Part shown: in pieces, positions 36,336 through 54,610 of the stretch
Position numbering within the stretch: the first letter of the stretch is position 1
Layout of the letters: each line of letters opens with the position of its first letter
Origin: a phage
Sequence record: PV806339.1
DNA length: 60,026 nt
Strand: one strand, 5' to 3'
Translations under genes and position numbers: made by a program
The notes under the pieces: generated by a model
What the model was told of the DNA's origin: nothing
Databases searched by the model: none
The model's input: only the letters and a program-made list of their open reading frames with translations

Positions 36336-36342
36336 ACAGTTT

Positions 36343-37326: not shown

Positions 37327-37493
37327 TGGCCGTCTCGTTTGATGTAGCAGCCGCTTAACGGGCTGTATTTGGTTGGTAGTTCGGTCTGGACGCTGACGTC
37401 GTTACACCCGATCGCCGCGCCCACACGGCCAATAACAAACAGCACACCGCAGATAATCAATACAAACAGCGTTAGCGCAGCGATCTTCTTCAT
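37299..37493 (-). CDS. small membrane/secreted protein (64 aa)
   Basis: N-terminal hydrophobic segment KKIAALTLFVLIICGVLFVIG. Confidence 0.4.
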   Translation of the reverse strand: MKKIAALTLFVLIICGVLFVIGRVGAAIGCNDVSVQTELPTKYSPLSGCYIKRDGQWEPLDWRL

Positions 37494-37503
37494 GGTGGCC
37501 CCT

Positions 37504-38322: not shown

Positions 38323-38361
38323 AATAAAAAACTCCCGTTGGTGGATTAACCTTCGGGAGTA

Positions 38362-38390
38362 ATATTAATTACACATGTCGCGTGTGTCAA
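38362..38390 (-). promoter_or_regulatory. sigma70-like promoter with conserved extended spacer (- strand)
   Basis: On - strand: TTGACA (38390-38385), spacer CACGCGACATGTGTAAT (17), -10 TAATAT (38367-38362). Confidence 0.55.
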
Positions 38391-38399
38391 ACGCTTTCT

Positions 38400-41531: not shown

Positions 41532-41553
41532 GACTCCTTTGTTATGGTACGGG

Positions 41554-41582
41554 AATATTAGTCGTACACGCGACGTACGTCA
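41554..41582 (-). promoter_or_regulatory. sigma70-like promoter with conserved extended spacer (- strand)
   Basis: On - strand: TTGACG (41582-41577), spacer TACGTCGCGTGTACGAC (17), -10 TAATAT (41559-41554). Confidence 0.55.
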
Positions 41583-41720
41583 ATAACTTTATTCGGGGCA
41601 AAAGAAAGCCCGCGTAAAGGGATTGCGGGCTTTTGGAAGGTGGCATCCGAAGATTACCACTGGCTTAAAGCGGACAACGCAGGAGCCGATAAGGAAGCAC
41701 TATGCCGAGTCCGCAGTTAA

Positions 41721-41996
41721 TCATATGTCGGGGTTACTGTAAATAAGATTCCAGTATTTGTACTCCTTCAAGTCCAGTTCGATGACGCATGGGTCATCCA
41801 GCGCGCTCAGGCAGGTGCCGTAGTCCTCGACAAAGACGCAGGAGGATTCCGGGTGATGCAGCAGGCGTACCCGGCGGTAGTTCAGGTGCCATTCCGGACT
41901 GAACACATGATCCTCCGGCTGGCGTATCAGCATGATCTGGCCTGTCGTTTTGACCTGCCAGTATTGGTCTACTTGGGGCGTGGCATAGGCTCCCAT
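41721..41996 (-). CDS. hypothetical protein (about 92 aa from Met at 41996; ORF extends to 42128)
   Basis: AAGGAG RBS before ATG at 41996, just downstream of previous stop. Confidence 0.4.
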   Translation of the reverse strand: MGAYATPQVDQYWQVKTTGQIMLIRQPEDHVFSPEWHLNYRRVRLLHHPESSCVFVEDYGTCLSALDDPCVIELDLKEYKYWNLIYSNPDI

Positions 41997-42000
41997 TTCG

Positions 42001-42234
42001 TTACTCCTTTTTATCCGCTTTGTCCCGGTAAACGCGGGTACCCATCTTCCCGTAGATCTGGTCTTGCAACGTGAACCGGATGGACAGGCGGATGTTAAGC
42101 CGATAGCCCATTCGACGCAGATAGCCAAGATCCTGCGGCTTCACGCCTTCGATAAAGAACGAATCGCCGTCCTTCATCCCGAGCAGAAGTTTTTCGTGAG
42201 TTTCACGCACGCTTTTGTCGGTAGTCGCGGCCAT
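42001..42234 (-). CDS. hypothetical protein (77 aa)
   Basis: ORF. Confidence 0.4.
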   Translation of the reverse strand: MAATTDKSVRETHEKLLLGMKDGDSFFIEGVKPQDLGYLRRMGYRLNIRLSIRFTLQDQIYGKMGTRVYRDKADKKE

Positions 42235-42236
42235 TG

Positions 42237-43313
42237 TTAAACCTCGTCGTCGTCTTCTTCGTCGTTCAGCGTTCCGGTGTACTCGACTACCTGCCCGGCC
42301 TCGTCCAGCACGCTGATCACCGCACGCAGGGACTTATCGAGTTGGAACAGGTTAGCCATCATGGTCAGGAACTGGCCGCCGTCGGTGCCGTAGCGTTCGA
42401 GCGTGGCGTCGTAGTTCGCATCAACGTCGGCCTCGCCGATGTGGATACCGGACAGGATGGCTTTGTCGGACAGGCGGAAGTACACGGTGTCGATGCCCGG
42501 GCATTGCGTATCGACTTCGAGATCCAGCGCGCGGACAGTCCAGTGACGTGACAGCAGGTCAACCACCGACTCGTCTTTGAAGATGTCCGTGTCCTTCATC
42601 TTGACGTCGTCGCCATCGTCGTGTTTCAGGTGGATAAACGCATCGCCCTTGATGCCGTCCTGCTGGCCGAGAACCGCGCGCTGCATTAACTGGCGCAGCT
42701 CATACTCGCTCGGCAGGAGGTGTTCGACGGGCCATGTGCCGAGCGCGGTACGGATCAGCGCGCTGCACTCTTCTGCCGTCTTCGCGCTCGACGTGAACAC
42801 GTACACGAACGGGGCGGACAGGATGACGTTGACGCGGGAAGGGCGGATAGGCGCGTGTTTCAGCATTTCCGCTTCCACGTCGTCCTTCATCTGCGCCCAA
42901 TCCTTGCGGTTCGGCTCCCAACCCTCGATCTCTTTCTCCCGCAACGCGGCCATGCGCTTCACGACTTCATTTCGTACGCTGACGCCGGGCAACACACGTT
43001 CGCGCTTCTCGATCTGGAAGACGATGGCGTTTGTTCCGGGGATGGCGAGGGCGAATTTACTTTCAACCTCTTCGCCGTACGCTGCAAAGCCCATTGTCTT
43101 GTAAGACGCCTCCGGCGGATCTGACACTTCATGCTTTTCGAGTGCATCGCTAAACGCTCCTTTCGCGAAAGCCGTTACGGCCTCTTCGTCAACGTTCGGC
43201 AGGTTCAGGATCAGGCGGTGCAGCGGCTTGACCTTCTCGTTACCGTCGTTGGCCGCGTCATACAGCGCGCCGAGGTGCAAGATAATGGCTTTCTCATAAC
43301 CCTTGATTTTCAT
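42237..43313 (-). CDS. recombination-associated RdgC-like protein (358 aa), ends ...EEDDDEV
   Basis: Length and several colinear segments resemble RdgC (e.g. ALGTWPVEHLLPSEYEL); identification tentative. Confidence 0.4.
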   Translation of the reverse strand: MKIKGYEKAIILHLGALYDAANDGNEKVKPLHRLILNLPNVDEEAVTAFAKGAFSDALEKHEVSDPPEASYKTMGFAAYGEEVESKFALAIPGTNAIVFQIEKRERVLPGVSVRNEVVKRMAALREKEIEGWEPNRKDWAQMKDDVEAEMLKHAPIRPSRVNVILSAPFVYVFTSSAKTAEECSALIRTALGTWPVEHLLPSEYELRQLMQRAVLGQQDGIKGDAFIHLKHDDGDDVKMKDTDIFKDESVVDLLSRHWTVRALDLEVDTQCPGIDTVYFRLSDKAILSGIHIGEADVDANYDATLERYGTDGGQFLTMMANLFQLDKSLRAVISVLDEAGQVVEYTGTLNDEEDDDEV

Positions 43314-43656
43314 GCTCTATGGCTCCTACGTTAATTAAATTGGCTGGTGCTCCGTGGTACATCGACTGCGCAGCATGGAACATCGCGGCGCGTAGTGCTT
43401 CTTTGGCCGCCCGAAGGCCCGCCATTGATTCAGCGTACTGGTCGCTGACCGTGTTATACGCCGCCTCGTCGTTGTCCAGTGTGGCGAGGTCAAGCATTTT
43501 GGTACTGTGGGCCTGCACTTCGTCTTCCATGTCCTTGAAAAACGTCTCAAGGGCAGACAGTTTGCAGGTGATTTGGTCTAACCGGACTTTGCGCAGTTCT
43601 TGGAACTGCACGCGAACGAATTCAATGCCTTCCACCAGCCACCTCCACGACGACAT
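43294..43656 (-). CDS. hypothetical protein (120 aa)
   Basis: ORF. Confidence 0.45.
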   Translation of the reverse strand: MSSWRWLVEGIEFVRVQFQELRKVRLDQITCKLSALETFFKDMEDEVQAHSTKMLDLATLDNDEAAYNTVSDQYAESMAGLRAAKEALRAAMFHAAQSMYHGAPANLINVGAIEHENQGL

Positions 43657-43957
43657 TCTGCACTTCCGGGCATGGCATATTCGTCATGGCCCAATCCAGA
43701 AACTTCACGATGTACATGCGCATGGCCGTGCATTCATCCGCGCCGCGAGCCTCGCCGTGCTTCGCGATGGCCGGGTCGCCAGACTGATAGAAGGTCACGC
43801 GGTGATTCGTGGCCGCCGACACCTTGATCCCGGTGTGCGTGGCATGGATGGTCACGCTGTAGATCCGCTCGATAGCGCGGAACGCCGGGACGACGTCGAT
43901 GCGGCCTTTCGGGTGCATGGCGTTGTTCACCATCAACGCGGTATTAGTCGGCTGCAT
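43622..43957 (-). CDS. hypothetical protein (111 aa)
   Basis: ORF. Confidence 0.4.
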   Translation of the reverse strand: MQPTNTALMVNNAMHPKGRIDVVPAFRAIERIYSVTIHATHTGIKVSAATNHRVTFYQSGDPAIAKHGEARGADECTAMRMYIVKFLDWAMTNMPCPEVQNVVVEVAGGRH

Positions 43958-44384
43958 TCAGAGGTTCCTCTTTCAGACGGTAGGTGATGGTGTCCGGGCG
44001 AGTCGCGTCGATTTCCAGTTCAGGCATCTGCCCGGTGATCAGGCGGGACGGCGTAAGGACTGCGGTGCGCAGGCCATTCTCGAACATGATGTTGGCCGCC
44101 GTGACCAGCGAAATACTTTCGATGTGGTCTTGGGTCTGGTCGAGGCGGCGCTGTAACAGTTCGACCTTCTCCGCGTTCGTGTCCGGAATGTCGAAGGCAG
44201 ACCGCAAGCCATCGATCAACGCAATAGCGTCCGCGCGGGTCAGGGGGGTAACGATCTCGGTGTCGCCGTTGTCCTTCTCGATGTAGATCTCGCCGTCCTT
44301 CTGGCCGGGCTTCTTGTAGATAAAGGCCGTGCGGGTGATGTCGCGTACCGGACTCAGTTCAATAGGGTGGTGCGTGGTTTTCAT
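43944..44384 (-). CDS. hypothetical protein (146 aa)
   Basis: ORF. Confidence 0.45.
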   Translation of the reverse strand: MKTTHHPIELSPVRDITRTAFIYKKPGQKDGEIYIEKDNGDTEIVTPLTRADAIALIDGLRSAFDIPDTNAEKVELLQRRLDQTQDHIESISLVTAANIMFENGLRTAVLTPSRLITGQMPELEIDATRPDTITYRLKEEPLNAAD

Positions 44385-44455
44385 CGGTGTGCGTCCTATA
44401 GGGTGTCAGGTCAAAAGGGTGGTACGCCATTTTTCAGGCGTGCCGTCCTACGTTT

Positions 44456-44827
44456 TTAAACTTCGTCGTCGTCCGAAACGTCGGTGTCAGTACAGGTCAC
44501 AACGGCCTGAATGAACATGCGGCCAGACGGGTAAGTCACCAGCGCGGATTCCATGCTGAACCGTTGGCCGTGGTGTTTCATGGCGTTCCGGATGGAAGAA
44601 TTAAGGCTGGCCCGCATCTTCGCTTTGAGGGCATTGGCCTCGTCCTGTACCTGCGAAAGCGTACGGTCAAGCGGGAGTTCTTGGGACAGGGTGTACACGC
44701 CACCGACTTCCAGCGCAATGAGGTTCCCCACGACGCTGTACACGCGCACGCGTGACGGCAGTTCAACATCCGGCTCGGTCGTCATCATTGCGCCAGTCAG
44801 TTCGGCCGGGCTTAGTTCTTTGCTCAT
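44456..44827 (-). CDS. hypothetical protein (123 aa), ends ...VSDDDEV
   Basis: First gene of - strand early operon; GGAG RBS; promoter upstream. Confidence 0.5.
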   Translation of the reverse strand: MSKELSPAELTGAMMTTEPDVELPSRVRVYSVVGNLIALEVGGVYTLSQELPLDRTLSQVQDEANALKAKMRASLNSSIRNAMKHHGQRFSMESALVTYPSGRMFIQAVVTCTDTDVSDDDEV

Positions 44828-44869
44828 TGGGATGGCTCCAGTTGGTTCGTTAAATGTTACGTTCGGAGA

Positions 44870-44898
44870 ACAATAGTTCTACACGCGACGTATGTCAA
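44870..44898 (-). promoter_or_regulatory. sigma70-like promoter with conserved extended spacer (- strand)
   Basis: On - strand: TTGACA (44898-44893), spacer TACGTCGCGTGTAGAAC (17), -10 TATTGT (44875-44870). Confidence 0.55.
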
Positions 44899-44951
44899 TT
44901 CATTTCATCCAGTAATTATGATGACCGGGTGACACTCCAGTTTAGTTTCAG

Positions 44952-45187
44952 CCGGATGACTTTTTGAAGTAAGGCGGGTGGCCGGGCCGCCGGGCTTCAA
45001 CCGGGTAACTTTTTCAAGTAAGCGCGGAACGTCGCAACGACAACCGGACAGGTTTTTCAAGTAAGCCCGTCAGCCGGGTGAAATTGCCCCGACGCTGGTG
45101 GACAAAACCGTCAGCCGGGTAGGTTTTTGAAGTAAGAACTGGCCGCGTCGTTCAAAATTTTTCAACCGGGTAACTTTTTCAAGTAAG
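44952..45187. repeat. array of five 22-bp direct repeats CCGG(G/A)T(A/G)(A/G)(C/G)TTTTT(C/G)AAGTAAG
   Basis: Copies at 44952-44973, 45001-45022, 45044-45065, 45115-45136, 45166-45187; copies 2 and 5 identical. Confidence 0.85.
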
Positions 45188-45493
45188 CCCGTCGGGAATT
45201 TTTATAGAGAAAGTCAGGCCCGGCGCGGCCTGCCGTTGTGGGCGGTTGTCGTTTTTGGCGGGATTTCGTACAAATCGTTATAAATCAACGGCTTAACCTA
45301 TGCGCCGATCGGCCTGTTTTGGCCCGGTTGGCGTCGGTTTTTCGTATAGAGTTCAAGTGTTTAGGACGTGGCGCGGTGTGCCGTTTGGCGGTGTGCCGGG
45401 GCGGGGGCCGTGGGGCGCGGCGGTGCAATGCGGCCCGGCGTGGCGATCGGTGGCGCTTTTATGTGCGGTTAATCAAATAATATGAAAAAAGAT

Positions 45494-45522
45494 TTGACGC
45501 ACGCCGCGTATATCATTTACAT
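45494..45522 (+). promoter_or_regulatory. sigma70-like promoter with conserved extended spacer (+ strand)
   Basis: TTGACG (45494-45499), spacer CACGCCGCGTATATCAT (17), -10 TTACAT/TACATT; followed by CCCTTCGGGGG hairpin. Confidence 0.5.
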
Positions 45523-45587
45523 TTAAATTCCCTTCGGGGGACGGGGCAAAAAGTCCCGGCGATAAACTAACTTTATGAGGTGTCACG

Positions 45588-45848
45588 ATGGAAAAGGTAT
45601 ACAACGCGATCAAGGGTCAGACGTTGCAACATTGGTTATCAATCGTTATTAAGCGCGACGAAAGCGGCACGGCAACGGTTGAACTGCATAGCACGATCCA
45701 CGTTAACCGGGTGAGCACGCTTTCTTTTTCATGGGGGAAGGAATTCACCGACGCCGATATTTTAAATGACAATGATTTATTACGCGTTATTTATCAGAAG
45801 TACGGCCGCGAAATTTTCACCGCCGAATATACCCGCGATTTCAAATAA
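45588..45848 (+). CDS. hypothetical early protein (86 aa)
   Basis: ORF downstream of promoter. Confidence 0.5.
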   Translation: MEKVYNAIKGQTLQHWLSIVIKRDESGTATVELHSTIHVNRVSTLSFSWGKEFTDADILNDNDLLRVIYQKYGREIFTAEYTRDFK

Positions 45849-45861
45849 GAGGATCAACACA

Positions 45862-46401
45862 ATGCAAACTATCATTACCAAATATTCTAACGGTTCAATT
45901 ATGGCTAAATGCTGGAATGGTTGGACGCGTTCACAGTATGACGCTGAATTAAATAGCGAACAAAATCACCGCGCGGCCGCTGAAAAGTTGATCGCTAAAC
46001 TCAATGCGAATAAATCAGTTAGTTGGGGGATTGTTGCTAGTGCGCCATCCGTGCCGGGCGTGCGTGGTACGGATAATGGCTGGACGTTTATGATCGGTTA
46101 TATTCCAGAAGTCGCGCCGCTGGATATGTCGATCACTGTTAAATTCTGCCCGGCAACAAATAAAGGCCCGGCGTATATGCGCGTTTATTCGTGGTTAGTG
46201 CCGCGCGGGATCAAGGTTAACTATTCGCCACGCGTCGCCGACGGGTCAGACATTCAAGCCAATGCACGATACGCGGCCGGGATCATGTTAGAGCGAATTA
46301 ATGAAATATGCCGCGAGGGGGGCGATCTTTTAGGCTGGAAAATTGCGGACTATGTGCAATTGTACGACGGCGATCGCCTGTTCACACTGAAAGCTAATTA
46401 A
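45862..46401 (+). CDS. hypothetical early protein (about 180 aa; start refined from ORF 45766)
   Basis: RBS AAGAGG before ATG at 45862. Confidence 0.5.
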   Translation: MQTIITKYSNGSIMAKCWNGWTRSQYDAELNSEQNHRAAAEKLIAKLNANKSVSWGIVASAPSVPGVRGTDNGWTFMIGYIPEVAPLDMSITVKFCPATNKGPAYMRVYSWLVPRGIKVNYSPRVADGSDIQANARYAAGIMLERINEICREGGDLLGWKIADYVQLYDGDRLFTLKAN

Positions 46402-46415
46402 TCCGGGGGCGCGTC

Positions 46416-46616
46416 ATGTTAATGGCTATTATCTTGATCGGTTATTCAATTATTGCGGCTGTTATATATCGTGACGCGCGGGCGGTGTGGCGTCGCTGTA
46501 AGGTTGAGCGCCGTTATTCTTTCGGGCGTAAAACTTTTTATTTACGCGAGCGTAAAACAGGCCGTTTGATCGGCTGTTCAAATAATTTTTTCACTCTTCT
46601 GTTACAAGGGGCTTAA
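46416..46616 (+). CDS. small membrane protein (66 aa)
   Basis: N-terminal TM LMAIILIGYSIIAAVIY. Confidence 0.4.
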   Translation: MLMAIILIGYSIIAAVIYRDARAVWRRCKVERRYSFGRKTFYLRERKTGRLIGCSNNFFTLLLQGA

Positions 46617-46618
46617 TC

Positions 46619-47101
46619 ATGAATCTTAATTCTATCAATAAAGATCAACGTTTATACGTCATGAAAGCGGGCGCGGGCTTTACCTGCTACGGGTTCGACG
46701 TGCTGAACAATAAAGCGCGCCGGGCGTTGGAATGGTTAAAGCGTCACGGCCGCGCGGCTGAAATGCTGTTAGGGGCAAAGGGGATCGACGTCATCGCGCT
46801 GGATATTCCCGCCCGCGTTGGTACTAAAAAACATTTTGCCGCGTGCAATAAGGTATTCGACGCCGCGCGGATCTATTCCATCGCGAGCGGCAATAAATGC
46901 GATGCGGAATATACACCGCAATTAATCGGCCTTGAGGGTCGCCGCGTGGAAGTGGTGGACGCATACGGGGAAACGCGCCGCTTTACCGTGGGGCGGTCAT
47001 CCGGCTGGATGCCTTGCCACCTTGAGATCGCCCGCCGCGATTCCAACGGCGGCCCGGCGGTGACGGGCGCGCCTTTTAAATCCGTATCCGTAATTAACTA
47101 A
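46619..47101 (+). CDS. hypothetical early protein (160 aa)
   Basis: ORF. Confidence 0.5.
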   Translation: MNLNSINKDQRLYVMKAGAGFTCYGFDVLNNKARRALEWLKRHGRAAEMLLGAKGIDVIALDIPARVGTKKHFAACNKVFDAARIYSIASGNKCDAEYTPQLIGLEGRRVEVVDAYGETRRFTVGRSSGWMPCHLEIARRDSNGGPAVTGAPFKSVSVIN

Positions 47102-47112
47102 CCGGGGGATCT

Positions 47113-47316
47113 ATGGGTCATATGTATGGCGTTATCTTGTCAAATGGTACGCATTGCGACACGTCAACCACGGAAAAGGGCGCGAAAAATTACGCCACGC
47201 GCCACGGTTACAAGGAAGTAAGCCGCCGCCTGAATTGCGGCTATGACGTCGAAATCGTAGCACATCGCGCCGGGTCGAAATGGATCGACGGGCCTGCTAA
47301 CCACTCAACCAAATAA
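47113..47316 (+). CDS. hypothetical early protein (67 aa)
   Basis: RBS GGGGGAT. Confidence 0.4.
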   Translation: MGHMYGVILSNGTHCDTSTTEKGAKNYATRHGYKEVSRRLNCGYDVEIVAHRAGSKWIDGPANHSTK

Positions 47317-47326
47317 GGGGATCACC

Positions 47327-47875
47327 ATGAAACTAAATATCACCGCGCCGGGCCTGTTCTTTAATCGTAGCGGCGACCGCGTCACCGTGGATCAAATCGT
47401 TTTAGAGAATAGCGCCGGGGCCGTCGTGTCATTCCCTGTTAAGGGCCGGATCTGGAAAATGTACCGGGGCGCTTATCGTCCGCGTGAGTTCAAGATCTGG
47501 ACGGCGGCGGGCAAGTTTTACGCGGGCGAACAATCCCGATCGCCGTGGGATATTGTCGGCGAGGTTGTCGCGGACGATGTGCGCCCGGTGTACTGGCAAG
47601 ATCTGACCGATGTCCAGAAAGCGCAAGCCGCCGCCAAATATCACAACGGGGAAGGCACGCCGGAAGATTATTTCACCTATACGCCGGATCAATTCATCCT
47701 GATTAATGGTGACGTTTACGATCTGGACGCCGACGCGGCCGTTTATGAGGTGGAAGGGTTAAAAGGTCATGTGCGCATACTGGAAAGCTCAAAGGCGGAC
47801 GGGGCCGCGTTGGCGGTGCAATGTGTGGACGGCTGGCAAGTAATAAGCGTTTACCGCGTACAGGTGGCATCATGA
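47327..47875 (+). CDS. hypothetical early protein (182 aa)
   Basis: RBS AAGGGGAT. Confidence 0.5.
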   Translation: MKLNITAPGLFFNRSGDRVTVDQIVLENSAGAVVSFPVKGRIWKMYRGAYRPREFKIWTAAGKFYAGEQSRSPWDIVGEVVADDVRPVYWQDLTDVQKAQAAAKYHNGEGTPEDYFTYTPDQFILINGDVYDLDADAAVYEVEGLKGHVRILESSKADGAALAVQCVDGWQVISVYRVQVAS

Positions 47876-48093
47876 ATAAAACCGGATTTTCGGGGAACGC
47901 CGCAAGGGCCGCGATCAAGTTTACCGCGTGCGGCGCGATCGTGGCGTTTATCGGGGCGGCGGTTATTTTCGGCGACAACGTCGGGCCATATAAAGTGTTT
48001 TTGTATACCGTCGCCGGGGGCGTATGTGTGCGCCTGATTTGGCCGACTCAAGACGAGGGCGACGCGCTTTTAAAACGGGATGACGGCCCGTAA
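47872..48093 (+). CDS. small membrane protein (about 73 aa; start refined from ORF 47821)
   Basis: ATGA overlap; hydrophobic segments AIKFTACGAIVAFIGAAVIFG and VFLYTVAGGVCV. Confidence 0.4.
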   Translation: MNKTGFSGNAARAAIKFTACGAIVAFIGAAVIFGDNVGPYKVFLYTVAGGVCVRLIWPTQDEGDALLKRDDGP

Positions 48094-48127
48094 TGGTGAC
48101 GCGGCCGACGATTAAAGAGAAAAGTTA

Positions 48128-48157
48128 TTGACGCACGCCGCGTATATCATCTATTAT
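48128..48157 (+). promoter_or_regulatory. sigma70-like promoter with conserved extended spacer (+ strand)
   Basis: TTGACG (48128-48133), spacer CACGCCGCGTATATCAT (17), -10 CTATTA/TATTAT; followed by CCCTTCGGGGG hairpin. Confidence 0.55.
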
Positions 48158-48218
48158 TAAATTCCCTTCGGGGGCCGGGGGCAATGGGGCCGACGGTTAT
48201 CAAAACAGGTACATAAAA

Positions 48219-49388
48219 ATGACTCACGATCAAATCGTTGCAATGGTTAACAAATACAGCATTAAAGCCGATCGCGCCGTTTCTTATAACTTTGATAAAT
48301 ATGGTTCGACGCAAGTCGAGATCCGCGAGATTGACGGCGGCTGTTTAGTGTGGCGCGCGTGGTCTTATGAAAGCAATTTTGAAAACGTGTTAGAAAGCGC
48401 GCTCGATCATTCCGGTGTACTGAAAACCGCCGACGAAATCGCAGAACAGGAAGCCGCCGCACGCGCTCAAAAGCTCCGCAATGACGCGATTTTCTTTGAG
48501 GTTCACGGCTTCGAAGATGATTTCATTCTTAACCTGTCCGACTTTACCCGCGCTGAAATCGAAGCGGAGATCATCGCGATGAATGCAGAATTAAACGCGG
48601 CAAGCGCCGACGCCGACGCGGCAACGTTTGACGCCGCCGATCATGTTTTACGCTCAACCAATCCGGCCGGGGAATATGTGTATTTAAAGCGCGGTTTCTG
48701 GATGTTAGATCTTGAGGACGCGGAGATCCTGAACGCGCGCCCGGATATACACTGGACAAGCCTTTACGATACCCCGATCGAATATGTGACCGTTGAGCAG
48801 GCCCGCAAGGATGACCCGGAAAGCGATTTCATCAAGCAAATGAAAGCGGGCTATGTGACCGCCCCGGCCGACTATGTCGATCGCGCGTGCGCCGCCGTTG
48901 AGCGTGGCAACGTTAACGCATCGGGGATCGTGCTGCATACCTTGCGCGACAAAATCGACGGCGAATTTTACGAAATCTCGACCCGTATTAGCCCGGCCGA
49001 ATATCAGGTTTATCGTGTGCGCGTTGTCGTGTCGTGCTGCATTGATGGCGCGTTTCATAACGTCATTGAACTGGATCGCGACGTCAACACGGTTGAACAC
49101 GTCCGCGACGTGGTGCGCGTCGGCTGCATGAAACAATACATCAAGCAAGCCCGCGCGACGTTTGCCGCGACCGGGGCCGCAACGCTGAACAATGACAAGA
49201 CGGCGACCCGTATCAAGATTAAAACCGTTGCGGGCATGACGTTGATCGCTAAAACCGAAGACGTGATTTTTTCAGAAAGCGGCCTGTTTTGCTCCGCGTG
49301 GTTAATGCGCCTTGATTTACTGGAAAACAAGACATACGCGCAAGCCGTCCTAACGTCGCAAATCAAATCAATCGAATTTATCAAATAA
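48219..49388 (+). CDS. hypothetical early protein (389 aa)
   Basis: ORF downstream of promoter. Confidence 0.55.
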   Translation: MTHDQIVAMVNKYSIKADRAVSYNFDKYGSTQVEIREIDGGCLVWRAWSYESNFENVLESALDHSGVLKTADEIAEQEAAARAQKLRNDAIFFEVHGFEDDFILNLSDFTRAEIEAEIIAMNAELNAASADADAATFDAADHVLRSTNPAGEYVYLKRGFWMLDLEDAEILNARPDIHWTSLYDTPIEYVTVEQARKDDPESDFIKQMKAGYVTAPADYVDRACAAVERGNVNASGIVLHTLRDKIDGEFYEISTRISPAEYQVYRVRVVVSCCIDGAFHNVIELDRDVNTVEHVRDVVRVGCMKQYIKQARATFAATGAATLNNDKTATRIKIKTVAGMTLIAKTEDVIFSESGLFCSAWLMRLDLLENKTYAQAVLTSQIKSIEFIK

Positions 49389-49398
49389 GGGGATCGCG

Positions 49399-49623
49399 AT
49401 GTTTTACACCGTGCTTTTAAACGCCGACTTCGAAGGGGCGACAAACGTCAAAATCTTTTACGTGGAAGGGGAAACGGTAGAAGACGCCGTGACCGCCGCG
49501 ATCGATGACATCAACGCGACCGAAGCGGAGATCGGCGGGGATGACTTCGAACCGTTAGCGCGTGACCAGTTCACGATCATTGCAGTTTTTCCGGGCTATC
49601 AGCCTAACGTGTGGGAGGGTTAA
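49399..49623 (+). CDS. hypothetical early protein (74 aa)
   Basis: RBS AAGGGGAT. Confidence 0.4.
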   Translation: MFYTVLLNADFEGATNVKIFYVEGETVEDAVTAAIDDINATEAEIGGDDFEPLARDQFTIIAVFPGYQPNVWEG

Positions 49624-49626
49624 CCG

Positions 49627-49896
49627 ATGGAAATTAACGGCGTACAGGTCAAAAGCGTTGAGCGGTTCAGCAATTACGCGGAATGGTTAGCGCGTCAAAT
49701 GGTGGCGGGCGTGCCGTTGGCGTCGCACGCTTGCCCGCATTGCGGATCGGCGTTGCACGTCATCGCAAACGGTGACAAGGGCGATCAATGGGATTCTACT
49801 TGCGCTTGTCCGGTGTGCGCGGGCTTCTTTCATCGCTCAATCATTCACGGCGAAAAGCCGGAAATAACGATCGTTAAACTGGATCGAGGTTGGTAA
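49627..49896 (+). CDS. putative zinc-ribbon protein (89 aa)
   Basis: Cys motifs CPHCGS...CACPVC. Confidence 0.45.
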   Translation: MEINGVQVKSVERFSNYAEWLARQMVAGVPLASHACPHCGSALHVIANGDKGDQWDSTCACPVCAGFFHRSIIHGEKPEITIVKLDRGW

Positions 49897-50048
49897 TTAT
49901 GGCGGGCTTATGGTTTTTAGTGGTGACGATGTGCGGCGCGGTTGGCGCTGATAATATGGCGGCCGATTGTCACGATTATGTTATTGACGCGGGGATCTCT
50001 TATGACGATTGCCGCGCGGCCGTGGCGAGGCGGTAGAAGGGGGCAACG

Positions 50049-50300
50049 ATGAATAAAGGCCAATACCGCGCCGCGCGTCGCCTGATACGTGATAACGGGA
50101 TCTATGCGTTGCGATGGCTGGACGATGACACCGCGCCGATTATGGACGTGTTAGCAAGCCAGCCGGATGACCAGTTAGAGACAAGGGCGGCGATCGTGGC
50201 GTACAGCGCCCGCGCCGGGCTTGCGTGCAATGTGCGTAAAACGGCGTCACTTGACCTTTTAGCGCGGTACCATGACCGCAAGGCGGCCGCGAATGGATAA
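50049..50300 (+). CDS. hypothetical early protein (83 aa)
   Basis: ORF. Confidence 0.4.
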   Translation: MNKGQYRAARRLIRDNGIYALRWLDDDTAPIMDVLASQPDDQLETRAAIVAYSARAGLACNVRKTASLDLLARYHDRKAAANG

Positions 50301-50544
50301 GGCGCAACGCTTAACGGCCGCACGTATGGCGGCGGATCGGTATGCCGGGATCGCAAGGGCAAAAGGTTTTAAGCGTCATATTGATGGCGTGACGTTTACC
50401 CGGGCCGATGCGGATCTAACGTGGGATGACCGGGCGCGCGCTTTCCGTGTGACGCTGTACAAAATGGACGGGGCCGCGCGTCTTGCCGTTGCCACTGTAC
50501 GCGCTAACGCGATGCTTAACGTGCTGTTAAAAGCGTTTATCTAA
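50293..50544 (+). CDS. hypothetical early protein (about 83 aa; start refined from ORF 50272)
   Basis: ATG at 50293 overlapping previous stop. Confidence 0.4.
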   Translation: MDKAQRLTAARMAADRYAGIARAKGFKRHIDGVTFTRADADLTWDDRARAFRVTLYKMDGAARLAVATVRANAMLNVLLKAFI

Positions 50545-50613
50545 AACCGAATTTTCGGGGAACGCCGCACGATCCCTTTTAACCTGTTTTGACATATTCC
50601 CCATGTATCAAAG

Positions 50614-50637
50614 GCCGCCTATCCGGGCGGCTTTTTT
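50614..50637 (+). terminator. Rho-independent terminator ending the + strand early cluster
   Basis: Stem GCCGCC / GGCGGC with loop tatccg followed by TTTTTT. Confidence 0.7.
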
Positions 50638-50648
50638 ATTGCCTTTCT

Positions 50649-50846
50649 GATATACGCGGCGTGCGTTGGTGTGCCGTGTATCGGGCCTATGGTGCGCCGC
50701 TGTAGTTGATATACGCGGCGTGCGTATGGCGGCCCGTCCTGCTTTCTTCCTTCCTGATATACACGACGTGCATCAATGCGGCCTTATGTGCGCGCTATGC
50801 CGTATGGCGGCCCGCTATGGTGCTGCATGATATACGCGGCGTGCGT
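50649..50846. repeat. four copies of the promoter-core motif in reverse orientation (GATATACGCGGCGTGCGT)
   Basis: Copies at 50649-50666, 50708-50725, 50755-50775 (variant), 50829-50846; reverse complement of the spacer core of the 45494 and 48128 promoters; no matching -10 on the - strand. Confidence 0.8.
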
Positions 50847-51307
50847 TGGTGTGCGGCTGTATATGGCTATCTATTCCCCTTTCTATGGTATCCCCTGCTA
50901 TATGGTGTGACGGGGCGTTATTGTATGCCCTTATTTCGGCCGCTATGGGGGCTAGGCGGGGCGATCGTGGTGTAAGGTATGCCTACCTATTACGATCTAT
51001 CTTGCGAGGCGTGGCGGGCGGCTGAGAAAGAATTACGGTCACGATTTCAAAAAGGTACTTACCCGCCAGTCGGTCGGCCCGGGGGTGCGCAGAGCCGCTT
51101 TCTCGGAAAATGGGCCGGATCTGCCATAGCCCCGCTTTGCGAAATCAATAACTTAGCCGAAAAACCGAATTTCTCCCGTAGGGAGTCTCCAAATCGCGGT
51201 GGTGACGGGGGTGCGGGCGGAACGGCGCTTTAGCCCCGCAATCGGTTGATTGTATTACTGTTTTACCCGGTGGGCGGGTGCTGACCAAGTCCACGGCAGC
51301 AGTATCA

Positions 51308-51590
51308 GGTTACAAGTTACAGACGGGTTACAAGTTTTTCGCTTTGTAACCTCTAACTATCTCACTGTTTTTACTGCGTTTTTCTCCTATAAAGTTACAA
51401 GTTACAAATAAAGTATAGTAATAGTCCAGAAATAGAGAAAACGAGGTAAAAATGTGAATTTTATATAGGGGGGAATTTTACCCGGGCGCTAAACCACTTC
51501 GGTTTGTAACCTGAATACCCGGATCGCTGAGAGCCGCGCCACCACTGGCCCGAACATGGTTACAAACGGCGAAAATGGTATGTAACCTTT
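51308..51590. repeat. iteron array of GTTACAA / TTGTAAC heptamers (at least 8 copies, both orientations)
   Basis: GGTTACAAG at 51308 and 51325, TTGTAACC at 51344 and 51504, tandem GTTACAAGTTACAA at 51394-51407, GGTTACAAAC at 51558, TGTAACC at 51580; AT-rich surroundings. Confidence 0.8.
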
Positions 51591-51608
51591 TGCCCGTTTT
51601 GGCCGTTT

Positions 51609-51662
51609 TCTTGCGTTTCAATAACAAATTTGTTATACGTCTTGCCCCGAATCCTGCTATAA
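51609..51662 (+). promoter_or_regulatory. candidate promoter/operator region upstream of XRE regulator
   Basis: Palindrome ACAAATTTGT, TATAAT hexamer, repeated TTTGTTATA. Confidence 0.35.
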
Positions 51663-51696
51663 TTTATTTGTTATAAACAGCAAAAATAGGTCAAAA

Positions 51697-51984
51697 ATGC
51701 AGCACGATGAATGCCGTGAAACGTTGATGGATTTCAAACGACAATTACAGACACATTTGAAGGCGATTTTACGTCGTCAGGGGGTCACACAGAGCGCGCT
51801 TGCGACGATGATCGGCGTACACCAGTCAAGATTAAGTTTCATGCTTAACAGTGACGCAGACAGAGTTTCGATCGATAAACTCATTGAAGCGATAGTGAAA
51901 CTGGACGGCGTGTTTATGGTGAAAATCGGAGATCAAACAGACATAAATCGAGTGCGGTACAAGGAGTGCGAAGACAACGTTTGA
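51697..51984 (+). CDS. XRE-family helix-turn-helix transcriptional regulator (95 aa)
   Basis: HTH GVTQSALATMIGVHQSRLSFML typical of Cro/CI-type regulators. Confidence 0.65.
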   Translation: MQHDECRETLMDFKRQLQTHLKAILRRQGVTQSALATMIGVHQSRLSFMLNSDADRVSIDKLIEAIVKLDGVFMVKIGDQTDINRVRYKECEDNV

Positions 51985-51995
51985 CAGACAAAAAT

Positions 51996-52020
51996 AAGGC
52001 CGGATTTCCCGGCCTTTTTA
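51996..52020. terminator. bidirectional Rho-independent terminator between convergent genes
   Basis: Stem AAGGCCGG / CCGGCCTT with loop atttc; A-run upstream and T-run downstream. Confidence 0.7.
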
Positions 52021-52024
52021 TCGA

Positions 52025-54610
52025 CTAAACTTCGTCTTCATCGTCAAACGGGTCTGGCTTTTTGCCGACCAGTTTTTCGACTTCTGCGTCATGCCGTTTT
52101 AACGTAGTCTGCACCCACGACGAGTTAAGTTTCCCCGCGTCGTCGAATGCCCCTTTGACCCGCTTCCTGACATAAACGCGGCCAGATTCGCCGCCAAATT
52201 TGACCACGCCGCCCGGCTTGAAGCCCAATTCCATAAGCATGTTTTTCAGGCGGTTCGTCTTCGGCATTTCCACGTCTGTCATTTCGAGGAATGCGTTTTT
52301 CAGGGACGGCACGAAGATGACGTCGCGGTGTACGCCCGGCGTCGTTCCGTCACGAAGCATTTGTGCGATTGCGCCTTCCACGCCATCGTCAGACGCGTCG
52401 GCCATGACCGCGAATGCTTCGGTGTCCTGCGGTGCGTGTCCTTTGGCATCGAAATCCTTTCCGATCTCCCAATCGAGGAACCACTTTTTGATAGCAGGTG
52501 CGTGGTTTTCGATTGCCCGGTACACGTTTTTGAAGAAGCGCGCGCGTTCAGTCTTCGACCCGTAAACCCGCTCCATGTCCAGATGATTTTCTGCCTGCGT
52601 GGACACCACCAGATAACGACGCTGGTTTTCATCGAGTGGCAATGCGTTGAAGTGGTTGGTGAACATCATTTTGCTGCTGGTGTTCACGACTTCCTTCGGC
52701 TTGCGGCCCTTTGGCTCAATCTGGAAGCGATCGTTTGTGATGAATTCCTTCTGGCGTTCCACCGCGCTGTACCGATCGCCTTTGTCGTAGATCTCTTCCA
52801 CGATTTTCAGGATGTGGCCCTCGGCCCAATCGCTGAAACGGCCATTCATCACGGTGTTTGACACATAGCCCACGTTCGACGCGCCGAGCATCCGCGACAT
52901 GATGATGCCGAGCGTCGTTTTACCAGAACCATGCGCACCACGGATCAGAAGCGAGTAGTTGATGCGTTTCGTTGGGTGCTGAATAACCCACGCCATCCAG
53001 TCCAGAACATAGCGGCGTTCCTTCTCGTTCGGGAAAAGCACGATGAAGAAGTCTTTGATGATCTCCAGCGCCTTTTTGTCGTACGGAGAAAGGTCAGTCG
53101 CGGCCTCCGGAATGGATTCAGGGTCAAAAGAGTTCAGCCACGTACGCCCACGGTCGTCAATAAAGAATTCCGGCCCGATCACCCCCTCTTTCGGCTTCCA
53201 CACAGATTCCGGCATGTCACCGTGCATCGCCGGGTAGTACATCGCGTCCCAAACGATAGGAACCGGGCGGACTACCGACGCATAGTGGACAGGCTTGAAG
53301 GCTTCTTCCTCAAACACGCATTTTTTCGCAAAAGCGACGTCGAAAGCGCCTTTTGTGATGTAATCGCCCGTGGTTTTTTCGATAAAACTGTCATTTGCCT
53401 TCGAGAAAACGAAGTTTTTCAGCCACTGCGGAGTCTCTTTTGACCCGTAATCGAAGCCCAAAAGCTCCCTTTTGTCACCAGCAGTGAGGCGGAAGTTGTT
53501 GATCCTGCGGTATGCTTCGGCCGCAATCTGGACGATGGCCTTGCGGGTAAGCCCGAAAATCTGCGCTTTTTTGAATGATTCGGCCCACGCATTCCAGTCA
53601 TTCGCCTCGGTACACTCGGCGAAAGCCTCGCGGTACTCGATGGCGCGTTCTTCCTGCTCGGCTTTCTCGATGTCCTGCACTTCTTTGATGATGGTGCCGA
53701 GCGTGATCAGTCGAGTCGAGTTGTGCGCGAAGCCCTTATCCCACTTGTATTCGAAATCACCTTCGTCGAAGTTGTGTGCCTGCATGGCCCATTCGCGGGC
53801 AATGGCCTTCGCCTCGTCCTGATCGCGGCAGGAAATTTGCAGCGCGGCCAGTACGGTGATGTAGTTCTCGTAATCTTCCGGGTTCGGGTATTTCAGGACG
53901 ATGTCGCGCAGTTCATCGTACGTGCCGTCCCACTTTTTGACGTCAGACAGCGCGGCCCAATCGTCATCGTCTGCCGAACCGATAGACTCATAACCGTTCA
54001 TTGGCCGTTTGACCATTGTCCAGCCCAAGTCCTTCGCGTATCGGTCGAATTCGGCGGCGATCTCGCGAGCGGTATCGAGGCTGATCTCTTCGAGGTCAAG
54101 GTCGGCGGCGTTGTTCAGCGGATTCTCGCCATCAATCCAGTAATAGTCGCGCTTGGTGTCCGGGTGGATACCGTACGCAACGAACTGCTGGCCGTCGGCG
54201 AGGATTTCAACTGCATGGCGCTGGCCGAAGTCGTCTTCCCACACGCCGGATTTCACTTTGGCGAACGGGTTTTCGGTTCGGTACAGGTAGAGTTTCTTCG
54301 GCTCCCGGCCGATACGACATGGCGCTGCACCGACGTTCTCGGCGATCCAGTCTGCCATGTGCGCCACGGCGTCTTCATCGTAAACGTCGATGTCAACCGC
54401 CGGGGTGTATTTGGTCAGAATCCCGATGCCGTTATTCGTATAGCGTTTCGCCCAACGCTGGATCTGCTCCTTATCATTGATTGTTCGTTCCCAATCTTCA
54501 CCGATAGGGCGTTTGCCCGCACCCTTCTTATCGGCGTCCGGGGCGTAGATAGGTACGATGGTGTACCCATTCCCCCAAAGCGTTTCGCCGTACTCTTGCC
54601 AGTAGTTCAT
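52025..54610 (-). CDS. bifunctional DNA primase-polymerase / SF3 (D5/P4-type) helicase (861 aa), ends ...DDEDEV
   Basis: N-terminal prim-pol-like region (GIGILTKYTPAVDIDVYD); C-terminal Walker A LIRGAHGSGKTTLG. Confidence 0.7.
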   Translation of the reverse strand: MNYWQEYGETLWGNGYTIVPIYAPDADKKGAGKRPIGEDWERTINDKEQIQRWAKRYTNNGIGILTKYTPAVDIDVYDEDAVAHMADWIAENVGAAPCRIGREPKKLYLYRTENPFAKVKSGVWEDDFGQRHAVEILADGQQFVAYGIHPDTKRDYYWIDGENPLNNAADLDLEEISLDTAREIAAEFDRYAKDLGWTMVKRPMNGYESIGSADDDDWAALSDVKKWDGTYDELRDIVLKYPNPEDYENYITVLAALQISCRDQDEAKAIAREWAMQAHNFDEGDFEYKWDKGFAHNSTRLITLGTIIKEVQDIEKAEQEERAIEYREAFAECTEANDWNAWAESFKKAQIFGLTRKAIVQIAAEAYRRINNFRLTAGDKRELLGFDYGSKETPQWLKNFVFSKANDSFIEKTTGDYITKGAFDVAFAKKCVFEEEAFKPVHYASVVRPVPIVWDAMYYPAMHGDMPESVWKPKEGVIGPEFFIDDRGRTWLNSFDPESIPEAATDLSPYDKKALEIIKDFFIVLFPNEKERRYVLDWMAWVIQHPTKRINYSLLIRGAHGSGKTTLGIIMSRMLGASNVGYVSNTVMNGRFSDWAEGHILKIVEEIYDKGDRYSAVERQKEFITNDRFQIEPKGRKPKEVVNTSSKMMFTNHFNALPLDENQRRYLVVSTQAENHLDMERVYGSKTERARFFKNVYRAIENHAPAIKKWFLDWEIGKDFDAKGHAPQDTEAFAVMADASDDGVEGAIAQMLRDGTTPGVHRDVIFVPSLKNAFLEMTDVEMPKTNRLKNMLMELGFKPGGVVKFGGESGRVYVRKRVKGAFDDAGKLNSSWVQTTLKRHDAEVEKLVGKKPDPFDDEDEV

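What the first reader, a model, noticed from the sequence alone, without database searches (positions are those of the whole stretch)
45588..50570. Compositionally distinct cluster of about 12 small early genes of unknown function, bounded by a repeated 26-bp element
The + strand genes between 45588 and 50544 are visibly more AT-rich at the third codon position than the structural genes, have strong GGGGAT-type RBSs, and none is recognisable. This is the expected location for host-takeover, anti-restriction or anti-defence genes. A 26-bp element AAACCG(G/A)ATTTTCGGGGAACGCCGCA occurs at 47878 (start of a gene) and at 50545 (just after the last gene), suggesting a recombination scar or mosaic boundary.
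Basis: partly seen in the sequence, partly recalled or inferred. Interest (0 to 1): 0.45.

Follow-up and report, generated by a model that had tools for sequence, protein, structure and literature searches.

The report
Chi-like phage early accessory gene block
This is the block of 13 small, mostly uncharacterised genes that all Chi-like Salmonella phages carry next to the right end of their DNA, laid out as two operons with host-type promoters; the repeated 28-bp element is real but looks like a leftover of an old rearrangement, not a border of the block.

Summary
The window is a Chi-like siphophage genome (Chivirus). It is 92-96% identical to public genomes, and its cos site lies at 51084-51095. 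The flagged region corresponds to Chi gp64-gp75: 13 plus-strand ORFs just left of the right cos end.

The observations mostly hold.
- GC3 is 0.60 in the block against 0.71 elsewhere (p=2e-5).
- Shine-Dalgarno sites are G-rich.
- No gene has a named function.
- The repeat is real (28 nt, chance expectation 0) and occurs twice per genome in about 100 Chivirus records.

However, copy 1 sits mid-block, covering codons 2-10 of membrane gene g7. Copy 2 is non-coding, directly after the last stop codon.

The block is two tandem sigma70-type operons (P1 at 45494, P2 at 48128) with one terminator at 50614-50639. Both promoters belong to a six-member promoter family that shares a 21-bp palindrome.

Three genes have relatives in early regions of other phages. 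g1 matches a T7-group class I gene. g10 weakly matches Mu gp6. g13 matches the T5 pre-early Ung-dependent nicking protein.

The repeat is absent from three sister genera, is not a present-day mosaic breakpoint and is no better conserved than its surroundings. A rearrangement scar is the likeliest reading. Overall this is ordinary, with modest leads.

The parts
45494..45523 (+). Promoter P1: TTGACG, 18-nt spacer, TACATT. The 21-bp palindrome TGACGCACGCCGCGTATATCA (45495-45515) overlaps the -35 hexamer and the spacer.
   Evidence: Promoter scan. 77-nt duplicate of P2 (family D4). Member of the six-copy family TTGACRYACGYSRCRTRTR, expected 0.01 by chance.
45528..45558 (+). P1 leader: hairpin CCC-UUCG-GGG followed by a second hairpin, at the probable 5' end of the transcript.
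   Evidence: Fold. Hairpin 1 is invariant across 12 leader variants. Hairpin 2 differs in sequence between variants and was not captured by the consensus fold. Energy z-scores are not significant.
45588..48093 (+). Operon 1, genes g1-g7. g1 is DUF7300. g3 (signal peptide in the Siskin annotation) and g7 are membrane-associated proteins. g7 overlaps the g6 stop codon (ATGA).
   Evidence: Equivalent to Chi gp64-gp70.
47877..47904 (+). Repeat copy E1: TAAAACCGGATTTTCGGGGAACGCCGCA. It encodes codons 2-10 of g7 (NKTGFSGNAA).
48128..48157 (+). Promoter P2: TTGACG, 18-nt spacer, TATTAT. It carries the same 21-bp palindrome (48129-48149). The leader hairpins lie at 48164-48197.
48219..50544 (+). Operon 2, genes g8-g13. 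g8 is 389 aa and acidic. g9 is a 74-aa acidic ORFan (net charge -13). g10 has a CxxC...CxxC zinc ribbon. g11 is a truncated signal-peptide protein. g13 is a homologue of the T5 Ung-dependent nicking protein.
   Evidence: Equivalent to Chi gp71-gp75 plus g9.
50542..50569 (+). Repeat copy E2: TAAAACCGAATTTTCGGGGAACGCCGCA. It is non-coding and begins at the g13 stop codon.
   Evidence: No start codon is available in the g7 reading frame (sequence read).
50590..50610 (+). Degenerate palindrome copy TGACATATTCCCCATGTATCA, with no -10 element, 20 nt after E2.
   Evidence: Enc34 carries an analogous palindrome-like sequence just before its terminator.
50614..50639 (+). Intrinsic terminator: GCCGCC-TATCCG-GGCGGC followed by TTTTTTAT. 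It ends both operons.
   Evidence: Fold and sequence. The consensus scan did not list it.

Best explanation
Region 45.5-50.6 kb is the conserved right-end accessory-gene block of a Chi-like virulent siphophage, equivalent to Chi gp64-gp75. It lies 540 bp left of the cos site.

Transcription. The host sigma70 RNA polymerase transcribes it from two near-identical strong promoters. P1 drives g1-g7 and P2 drives g8-g13. No terminator is predicted between them, and a single intrinsic terminator closes both at 50614-50639. The promoters belong to a six-member phage promoter family. Its -35 hexamer and spacer form a 21-bp palindrome, which is probably the binding site of a phage regulator that switches the early set on or off together. 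Each transcript starts with a small hairpin.

Products. The 13 products are small accessory proteins that act on the host cell rather than on replication or assembly.
- g3 and g7 are membrane proteins. g11 has a signal peptide (Siskin annotation).
- g13 is related to the T5 pre-early protein that uses Ung to nick host DNA.
- g1 and g10 belong to families found in T7-group and Mu early regions.
- g9 is a very acidic ORFan present in only some relatives.

The repeat. Copy E2 is a non-coding copy of the g6/g7 stop-start junction plus the first nine codons of g7. It sits directly after the g13 stop codon. It is most simply a scar of a rearrangement in the Chivirus ancestor (cassette duplication or a short conversion patch). 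It neither delimits the block nor acts as a current recombination joint.

Shown: the sequence anatomy, conservation and homologies. Inferred: timing of expression, regulator binding, all protein functions and the origin of the repeat.
For: Identity and position.
- The region is 92-96% identical to more than 100 Chivirus records.
- cos (GGTGCGCAGAGC) lies at 51084-51095. This matches the published Chi termini (PMC4342425) and the ends of public records.
- Gene-for-gene synteny with Chi gp64-75.

Promoters.
- Only three sigma70-like sites occur in 44300-52100, against 8.7 in shuffles. They are P1, P2 and a leftward one.
- The family pattern matches six times against 0.01 expected. All six have an 18-nt spacer and a TAnnnT -10 element.
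- P plus leader is duplicated over 77 nt.
- The same architecture occurs in Enc34, PatoteraRojo and Seifer.

Accessory, host-directed nature.
- No named family matches any gene.
- Indels remove or add whole genes (g5, g9 and an extra gene in KFS-SE1), and diversity steps fall at gene borders.
- g1 has relatives beside SAM hydrolase in Autographiviridae class I regions.
- g10 resembles Mu/D108 gp6, next to kil.
- g13 is 39-43% identical over 56 aa to the T5 and K20 first-step-transfer gene annotated as the Ung-dependent AP endonuclease. The PHROG 4227 match has E=1e-5 and hhalign gives E=5.5e-5. The GFK and FxRxD motifs are shared (PMC8201957).

The repeat as a scar.
- Similarity is confined to 28 nt.
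- Operon 1 and operon 2 proteins are not paralogues.
- The two E2 variants each keep a different part of the sequence upstream of E1: TGAAT in one and TAAAA in the other. Both can be derived from ATC(A)TGAATAAAACCGG.
- Neither copy is more conserved than its neighbourhood (rank 13-15%), and no diversity step occurs at either copy.
- No equivalent duplication exists in Enc34, PatoteraRojo or Seifer, although a g7 homologue precedes P2 in all three.
- Gene order at this end differs between Chivirus and Enc34.
Against: - No expression data exist. 'Early' rests on promoter consensus and on homologue context only.
- The g13-T5 link is short and the profiles are thin (hhalign probability 66%).
- The g10-Mu gp6 match is weak (27.5% identity, E=2e-4).
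- For the scar reading, E2 is 27-28/28 identical to E1, yet the adjacent palindrome copy at 50590 matches P2 at only about 15 of 23 positions. Uniform neutral decay of one old duplication does not fit this.
- One lineage (PST-D32, FSL SP-030, SAL_R1, Adana) carries the same G-to-C change in both copies. This hints at gene conversion or at selection on the sequence.
Confidence: 0.6

Rival explanations
1. The 23-28-nt element is a functional cis-acting site. The same protein would read it at both places, either on the mRNA (one copy in the translation-initiation region of g7, one in the 3' untranslated region) or on the DNA.
For: - Two copies per genome occur in about 100 Chivirus records (107 records, 200 places).
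- The edges of identity are sharp.
- Four related genomes carry the same G-to-C substitution in both copies. It also turns the core into the perfect palindrome CCGGA-TTT-TCCGG.
- Both copies have the same orientation in the same transcription unit.
Against: - The element is not more conserved than its surroundings.
- Other variants are not shared between copies. Siskin and ZCSE8 have GGTTTTACG in E1 only. ZCSE8 mixes the two types. The window has G-to-A in E2 only.
- No significant RNA fold (z-scores +0.57 and -0.08) and no Rfam match.
- No counterpart in three sister genera that share the rest of the architecture.
- No further copy elsewhere in the genome.
Confidence: 0.2
2. The two copies, together with the duplicated promoter-leader cassettes, are active substrates for homologous recombination that adds or removes gene cassettes. 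This would resemble the PeSL cassettes of T4-like phages.
For: - Direct repeats are interleaved as P1...E1...P2...E2, with similar spacing (2634 and 2665 nt).
- Promoter plus stem-loop cassettes flank variable ORFans, as described for PeSLs (PMC2839356).
- Gene content in the block varies between relatives.
Against: - None of the fetched relatives has an indel junction at E or at P. Breakpoints sit at gene borders.
- The one record lacking the segment (PK5) is joined inside g7 and inside cos, most likely an assembly artefact.
- The P1 and P2 leader hairpins lack a U-tract, so they are not terminators.
Confidence: 0.1
3. The low GC3 marks a recently acquired foreign island rather than an ancestral early region.
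For: - GC3 is 0.60 against 0.71.
- g1, g6, g9 and g10 have no homologue in the right ends of Enc34 or PatoteraRojo.
- g9 occurs only in some Chivirus genomes.
Against: - The block, its two promoters and homologues of g2-g5, g7, g8, g11, g12 and g13 are shared with other Casjensviridae genera.
- Its promoters are the same family as those of the leftward early genes.
- Low GC3 holds across both operons (0.58 and 0.62). This fits small accessory genes with high turnover and weak codon adaptation.
Confidence: 0.1
4. The genes are ordinary replication or recombination accessory factors.
For: - The block is co-regulated, through the same promoter family, with the leftward genes. Those include an exonuclease/RdgC-like recombination protein in relatives.
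- A five-copy iteron array lies between the divergent promoters.
Against: - No replication or recombination family matches any of the 13 proteins.
- The functional names given in some public records (RecT, resolvase, transposase, terminase) are not reproduced by any profile search.
- Three products are membrane or secreted proteins.
- Presence varies among close relatives.
Confidence: 0.1

Closest known systems
T5 pre-early (first-step-transfer) genes, T7 class I early genes and the Mu semi-essential early region
   Same: All are runs of small, mostly uncharacterised, host-directed genes read by host RNA polymerase from strong promoters near a genome end. Three direct homology links exist. g13 matches the T5 Ung-dependent nicking protein. 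g1 matches a gene beside SAM hydrolase in Autographiviridae. g10 matches Mu/D108 gp6 beside kil.
   Different: There is no terminal repeat and no two-step DNA transfer signal. Which DNA end enters first is unknown for Chi. Ten of the 13 genes have no counterpart in those phages. No activity has been tested.
PeSL (promoter-early stem-loop) regulatory cassettes of T4-like phages (PMC2839356)
   Same: A repeated strong sigma70-type promoter is joined to a stem-loop. Copies are spread through a region rich in small variable ORFans.
   Different: Here the stem-loop follows the promoter as a 5' leader, and for P1 and P2 it is not a terminator. No indel junction at a cassette was seen. The promoter spacer is a palindrome that is also repeated without a -10 element beside cos.
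Short conserved boundary or 'linker' sequences at module junctions in lambdoid phages
   Same: A short identical sequence sits at two gene junctions of one genome.
   Different: The element is restricted to one genus. It is not located at present-day mosaic breakpoints. One copy is coding and the other is a non-coding remnant.

Membership tests
Chivirus right-end gene block (Chi gp64-gp75) | Nucleotide identity and gene-for-gene synteny with Chi and its relatives | tested here: met
   92-96% identity over 45400-51000 to more than 70 full-length records. Gene order matches KM458633 gp64-75.
Chivirus right-end gene block (Chi gp64-gp75) | Position directly left of the 12-nt cos site GGTGCGCAGAGC | tested here: met
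   cos lies at 51084-51095. Public records end at window 51083 or 51095. Published termini are in PMC4342425.
Host-RNA-polymerase (sigma70) early operon | -35 and -10 hexamers with 16-18 nt spacing upstream of the first gene | tested here: met
   P1 is TTGACG/18/TACATT and P2 is TTGACG/18/TATTAT. They are two of only three sites in 7.8 kb.
Host-RNA-polymerase (sigma70) early operon | Transcription early in infection, before phage protein synthesis | not testable with these tools
   The literature searches run here returned no transcript data for Chi-like phages.
PeSL-type mobile regulatory cassette | The stem-loop acts as a terminator | tested here: not met
   The P1 and P2 leader hairpins have no U-tract. 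Only the leftward promoters at 38390 and 36335 are followed by a hairpin plus T-run.
PeSL-type mobile regulatory cassette | Insertions, deletions and replacements between relatives are joined at the cassettes | tested here: not met
   In 19 aligned genomes, diversity steps fall at gene borders (about 46394, 46594, 47094, 47344, 49144, 49394, 49644), not at P1, P2, E1 or E2.
T5 Ung-dependent AP-site nicking protein family (PHROG 4227; T5.015 of PMC8201957) | Sequence homology over most of the 70-aa protein | tested here: inconclusive
   PHROG E=1.2e-5. 39-43% identity over 56 aa with pairwise E of 1e-8 to 2e-10. tblastn against the phage collection gives E=8e-3. hhalign gives probability 66% and E=5.5e-5. 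The GFK and FxRxD motifs are shared.
T5 Ung-dependent AP-site nicking protein family (PHROG 4227; T5.015 of PMC8201957) | Binds Ung and is toxic to the host only when ung is present | not testable with these tools
   Needs expression in ung+ and ung- hosts.
Known anti-restriction or anti-defence protein families (Ocr, ArdA, KlcA, Gam and others with solved structures) | Profile or fold match | tested here: not met
DNA-mimic type inhibitor (candidate: g9) | Small, strongly acidic protein | tested here: met
   74 aa, 15 Asp+Glu against 2 Lys+Arg, pI 4.05. This is a necessary feature only and is very weak evidence.
DNA-mimic type inhibitor (candidate: g9) | Surface charge pattern mimicking B-DNA, and inhibition of a DNA-binding defence enzyme | not tested
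   Only two close homologue clusters exist.
Processive antitermination leader (nut/put-like) | Match to a described leader RNA family, or conserved two-hairpin structure with covariation | tested here: not met
   No Rfam match at E<=1. Only an invariant 4-bp hairpin is supported by the consensus fold, with no compensatory change.

The most novel reading that the evidence does not exclude
The 21-bp palindrome built into every early promoter may be the site of one phage-encoded DNA-binding protein. That protein may also occupy the array of five promoter-less copies (50590-50848) packed between the last gene and the right cos end. This would couple shut-off or timing of the whole early gene set, including this block, to an event at the genome end such as end protection on entry, circularisation or packaging.

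Support comes from covariation between genera. Klebsiella phage Seifer uses a different palindrome (TTGCACTCGTTCCGTGTGCA) in its promoters, and its cos-proximal copies follow that version.

Within the block itself, g13 would be a second, independent instance of the T5 strategy of using host Ung to nick host DNA. g9 would be a new DNA-mimic inhibitor.
Probability: 0.15. Interest if true: 0.6.

Novelty: new member of a known kind. Interest (0 to 1): 0.3.

Why it matters
Chi-like phages are widely isolated and are proposed for Salmonella control, yet roughly the last 5 kb of their genome is annotated only as 'hypothetical'. Some public records attach names (RecT, resolvase, transposase, terminase, holin) that no profile search here reproduces.

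This analysis provides:
- an operon map with promoters and a terminator;
- a list of which genes are core to the family and which are accessory;
- one testable function: g13 as an Ung-dependent host-DNA nicking factor;
- evidence that the repeated element should not be treated as a module border.

The practical value is as a shortlist for deletion, toxicity and anti-defence screens. It does not reveal a new kind of system.

Tried and rejected
1. Tandem duplication of whole operons. All-against-all BLASTP of the 13 proteins found nothing (best E=0.14). At DNA level the two units share only the promoter-leader and the 28-mer.
2. RNA structure for the element. Folds are not better than shuffles, and Rfam finds nothing.
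3. Extra conservation of the element. A 23-nt sliding diversity scan over 19 genomes ranks E1 and E2 at 13-15%, which is unremarkable.
4. Strict covariation of the two copies. ZCSE8, Siskin, L019 and the window itself break it.
5. An equivalent repeat in other genera. None was found in Enc34, PatoteraRojo or Seifer. Only chance-level 10-12-mers appear.
6. E-mediated deletion. The PK5 record lacks window 47921-51091, but its junction lies inside g7 and inside cos, so it is not at E. STM1 BHU is an artificial concatenation of CDSs.
7. The element elsewhere in nature. IMG/VR holds only two Chivirus contigs with it. The genome collection gave eight exact 22-mer hits in unrelated bacteria (Mesorhizobium x4, Desulfovibrio, Bacteroidaceae, Spyradenecus, Tepidisphaeraceae). 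Where I read the flanks by eye they pointed to unrelated reading frames. I could not interpret these hits and treat them as coincidental, although they exceed a naive expectation of about 0.14.
8. Structure route.
   - The g2 model is good but has no fold match.
   - The g8 model is poor outside residues 1-127.
   - g9 has too few homologues to model usefully.
9. Leader covariation. Hairpin 2 differs too much in register to align, so there is no statistical support.
10. Literature. The searches run here returned no paper on promoters, transcription timing or these genes in Chi-like phages.

Full report
WHAT THE WINDOW IS

A megablast of 45400-51000 finds 116 phage records. Of these, 74 cover at least 80% of the query at 90-96% identity, and essentially all are Chivirus (Salmonella phage Chi, KFS-SE1, BSPM4, YSD1, Serratia Smarc6 and others).

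Public linear records end at window 51083 or 51095. The 12-mer GGTGCGCAGAGC at 51084-51095 is the published cohesive end of Chi (PMC4342425). The window is therefore a circularly permuted Chi-like genome. The flagged region is the last 5 kb before the right cos end and corresponds to Chi gp64-gp75, all annotated 'hypothetical'.

CHECKING THE OBSERVATION

I count 13 plus-strand ORFs (g1-g13).

- **Composition.** Length-weighted GC3 is 0.603 against 0.710 for 49 other genes (Mann-Whitney p=2e-5). The block is lower than the structural genes, the minus-strand early genes and the left arm. Overall GC is 52.9% against 57.3%.
- **Ribosome-binding sites.** G-rich Shine-Dalgarno sites precede most genes. 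The literal GGGGAT/GAGGAT precedes four.
- **Recognisability.** Pfam recognises only DUF7300 in g1. Every best PHROG hit is 'unknown function'. NCBIfam and PDB sequence searches are empty.
- **The repeat.** It is real. The 26-mer occurs at 47879 and 50544 with none in 100 shuffles. It extends to 28 nt, and similarity ends abruptly on both sides.
- **What is not right.** The element does not bound the cluster. Copy E1 is in the middle, covering codons 2-10 of g7. Copy E2 begins at the stop codon of the last gene.

ANATOMY

Only three sigma70-like promoter sites occur in 44300-52100, fewer than in shuffles. They are P1 (45494-45523), P2 (48128-48157) and a leftward promoter at 44898-44870.

P1 and P2 are part of a 77-nt duplicated promoter-plus-leader. 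No terminator is predicted between g7 and P2. One intrinsic terminator at 50614-50639 closes both units. The block is therefore two tandem operons: g1-g7 and g8-g13.

The -35 hexamer and spacer of P1 and P2 form the 21-bp palindrome TGACGCACG-C-CGTATATCA. The pattern TTGACRYACGYSRCRTRTR occurs six times in the genome against 0.01 expected. The sites are P1, P2 and four leftward promoters at 44898, 41583, 38390 and 36335. Each has an 18-nt spacer, a TAnnnT -10 element and a downstream hairpin. The block thus shares its promoter type with the leftward non-structural genes.

The same layout exists in three other genera: Hafnia phage Enc34, Providencia phage PatoteraRojo and Klebsiella phage Seifer. 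It comprises:
- a five-copy iteron array between divergent promoters;
- two rightward promoter-leader duplicates;
- a g7 homologue immediately upstream of P2;
- a terminator.

THE PROTEINS

- **Localisation and charge.** g7 is a membrane protein; g3 and g11 have predicted signal peptides in the Siskin annotation. g8 (389 aa, net charge -21) has N- and C-terminal domains conserved across genera and a Chivirus-specific central insert. g9 is a 74-aa protein with net charge -13. It is found only in some Chivirus genomes.
- **Core versus accessory.** g2, g3, g4, g5, g7, g8 (its termini), g11, g12 and g13 have homologues in Enc34 and/or PatoteraRojo. g1, g6, g9 and g10 do not.
- **Turnover.** Among 19 Chivirus genomes, diversity changes stepwise at gene borders, and g5 and g9 are present or absent as whole genes.
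- **g1 context.** Relatives of g1 sit beside the SAM hydrolase gene in the class I early region of Autographiviridae.
- **g10 context.** g10 weakly resembles Mu/D108 gp6, next to kil.
- **g13 context.** g13 matches PHROG 4227 (E=1e-5). It is 39-43% identical over 56 of the 70 residues of the T5/K20 first-step-transfer protein annotated as the Ung-dependent AP-site endonuclease. The invariant GFK and FxRxD motifs are shared, and hhalign gives E=5.5e-5 with probability 66% (function from PMC8201957).

No anti-defence function is shown. The early, host-directed reading is supported by promoters, gene turnover and homologue context only.

THE REPEATED ELEMENT

About 100 Chivirus records carry exactly two copies (107 records, 200 places). 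It is absent from the other genera.

E2 comes in two forms: ATC-TAAAA-CCGG... and ATC-TGAAT-C-CCGG.... Each keeps a different part of the sequence upstream of E1 (ATCATGAATAAAACCGG...). Both can be derived from a copy of the g6/g7 ATGA stop-start junction plus the first nine codons of g7. In the window no start codon is available in that frame, so E2 is non-coding.

Points in favour of a scar:
- Neither copy is more conserved than its surroundings, and no diversity step occurs at either copy.
- No relative has an indel joined at the element. PK5 and STM1 BHU are artefactual records.
- The element has no significant RNA fold and no Rfam match.
- Gene order at this end differs between Chivirus and Enc34.

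Points against a simple neutral scar:
- One lineage carries the same G-to-C change in both copies. However, ZCSE8, Siskin and the window itself show unshared changes.
- E2 is far better preserved relative to E1 than the nearby palindrome copy at 50590 is relative to P2.

I therefore favour a genus-specific rearrangement or conversion scar (about 0.55-0.6). A functional cis-element gets about 0.2, and an active recombination substrate about 0.1.

COMPARISON WITH KNOWN SYSTEMS

The block works like the early accessory regions of T5 (pre-early), T7 (class I) and Mu (semi-essential early region). It has direct but thin homology links to each.

The promoter-hairpin cassettes recall the PeSLs of T4-like phages (PMC2839356). 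They fail two defining features: the hairpins are not terminators, and indel junctions do not fall at the cassettes.

No paper on transcription or on these genes in Chi-like phages turned up in the searches run here.

VERDICT

This is an ordinary, conserved early accessory-gene block of a well-sequenced phage genus. The 'boundary' reading of the repeat is wrong, and the 'scar' reading is plausible.

The useful products are the operon and promoter map, the g13-T5 lead and the acidic ORFan g9.

The most interesting thing nearby lies just outside the finding. Promoter-less copies of the promoter palindrome are clustered beside cos, and they co-vary with the promoter sequence between genera.

Noticed in passing
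window 50590-50848: Five copies of the 21-bp promoter palindrome without any -10 element lie between the last gene and the right cos end, at 50590, 50648, 50707, 50755 and 50828. Enc34 and PatoteraRojo have 2-3 such copies at the same place. In Klebsiella phage Seifer both the promoters and the cos-proximal copies use a different palindrome (TTGCACTCGTTCCGTGTGCA). The two therefore co-vary between genera, which points to one phage-encoded DNA-binding protein reading both.
   Followed up: partly
window 36317-48146 (36335-, 38390-, 41583-, 44898-, 45494+, 48128+): A six-member promoter family, TTGACRYACGYSRCRTRTR plus an 18-nt spacer and TAnnnT, against 0.01 expected by chance. The leftward members at 38390 and 36335 are followed at once by a hairpin plus T-run, which looks like an attenuator.
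   Followed up: partly
window 44947-45191: Five copies of a roughly 31-nt iteron (ACCGGGTAACTTTTTCAAGTAAGCC) lie between the divergent leftward and rightward promoters. The AAGTAAG end of the iteron and the five-copy layout are kept in Enc34, PatoteraRojo and Seifer. This could be a replication origin or a regulator array.
   Followed up: partly
window 51084-51095: The cos site GGTGCGCAGAGC. The window is a permuted whole genome, so the flagged block is the physical right end of the virion DNA.
   Followed up: yes
window 51309-51565: Seven of the ten GTTACAA/TTGTAAC heptamers in the genome fall in 257 bp just right of cos, at the left end of the mature DNA. They lie upstream of a 95-aa XRE-type HTH gene (51697-51984). 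This is a candidate terminase-binding (cosB-like) or operator array.
   Followed up: partly
window 49899-50036 (g11): g11 is truncated to 45 aa, against 68 aa in Smarc6. A 49-nt deletion between two 8-nt direct repeats (CGTGGCGA) shifts the frame. The signal-peptide part is retained.
   Followed up: partly
window 45360-45450: A G-rich plus-strand tract upstream of P1 carries repeated GGTGTGCCG-like units. The same unit follows two of the cos-proximal palindrome copies (50668, 50794). Some records annotate it as a small ORF (Chi gp63), but it has no PHROG or Pfam match.
   Followed up: no
L030 (Salmonella phage PK5, PV567558.1) 4543/4544: This 55.9-kb 'complete genome' lacks window 47921-51091. 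The junction runs from inside g7 to inside the cos overhang, so the record is probably mis-assembled. Several other public records give these genes functional names (RecT, resolvase, transposase, terminase, holin) that no profile search supports.
   Followed up: partly
L031, L034-L040 (bacterial genome contigs): Exact 22-nt matches to the repeat core occur in unrelated bacteria: four Mesorhizobium, Desulfovibrio, Bacteroidaceae/Spyradenecus and Tepidisphaeraceae. Where I read the flanks by eye they pointed to unrelated reading frames. This is more than a naive chance estimate of about 0.14, and I left it unexplained.
   Followed up: partly
L022 (Salmonella phage ZCSE8) 4342-4632: The g8 homologue is annotated as only 291 bp instead of about 1170 bp. 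This suggests that most of g8 can be lost, although the locus sequence itself was not checked here (domain layout).
   Followed up: no
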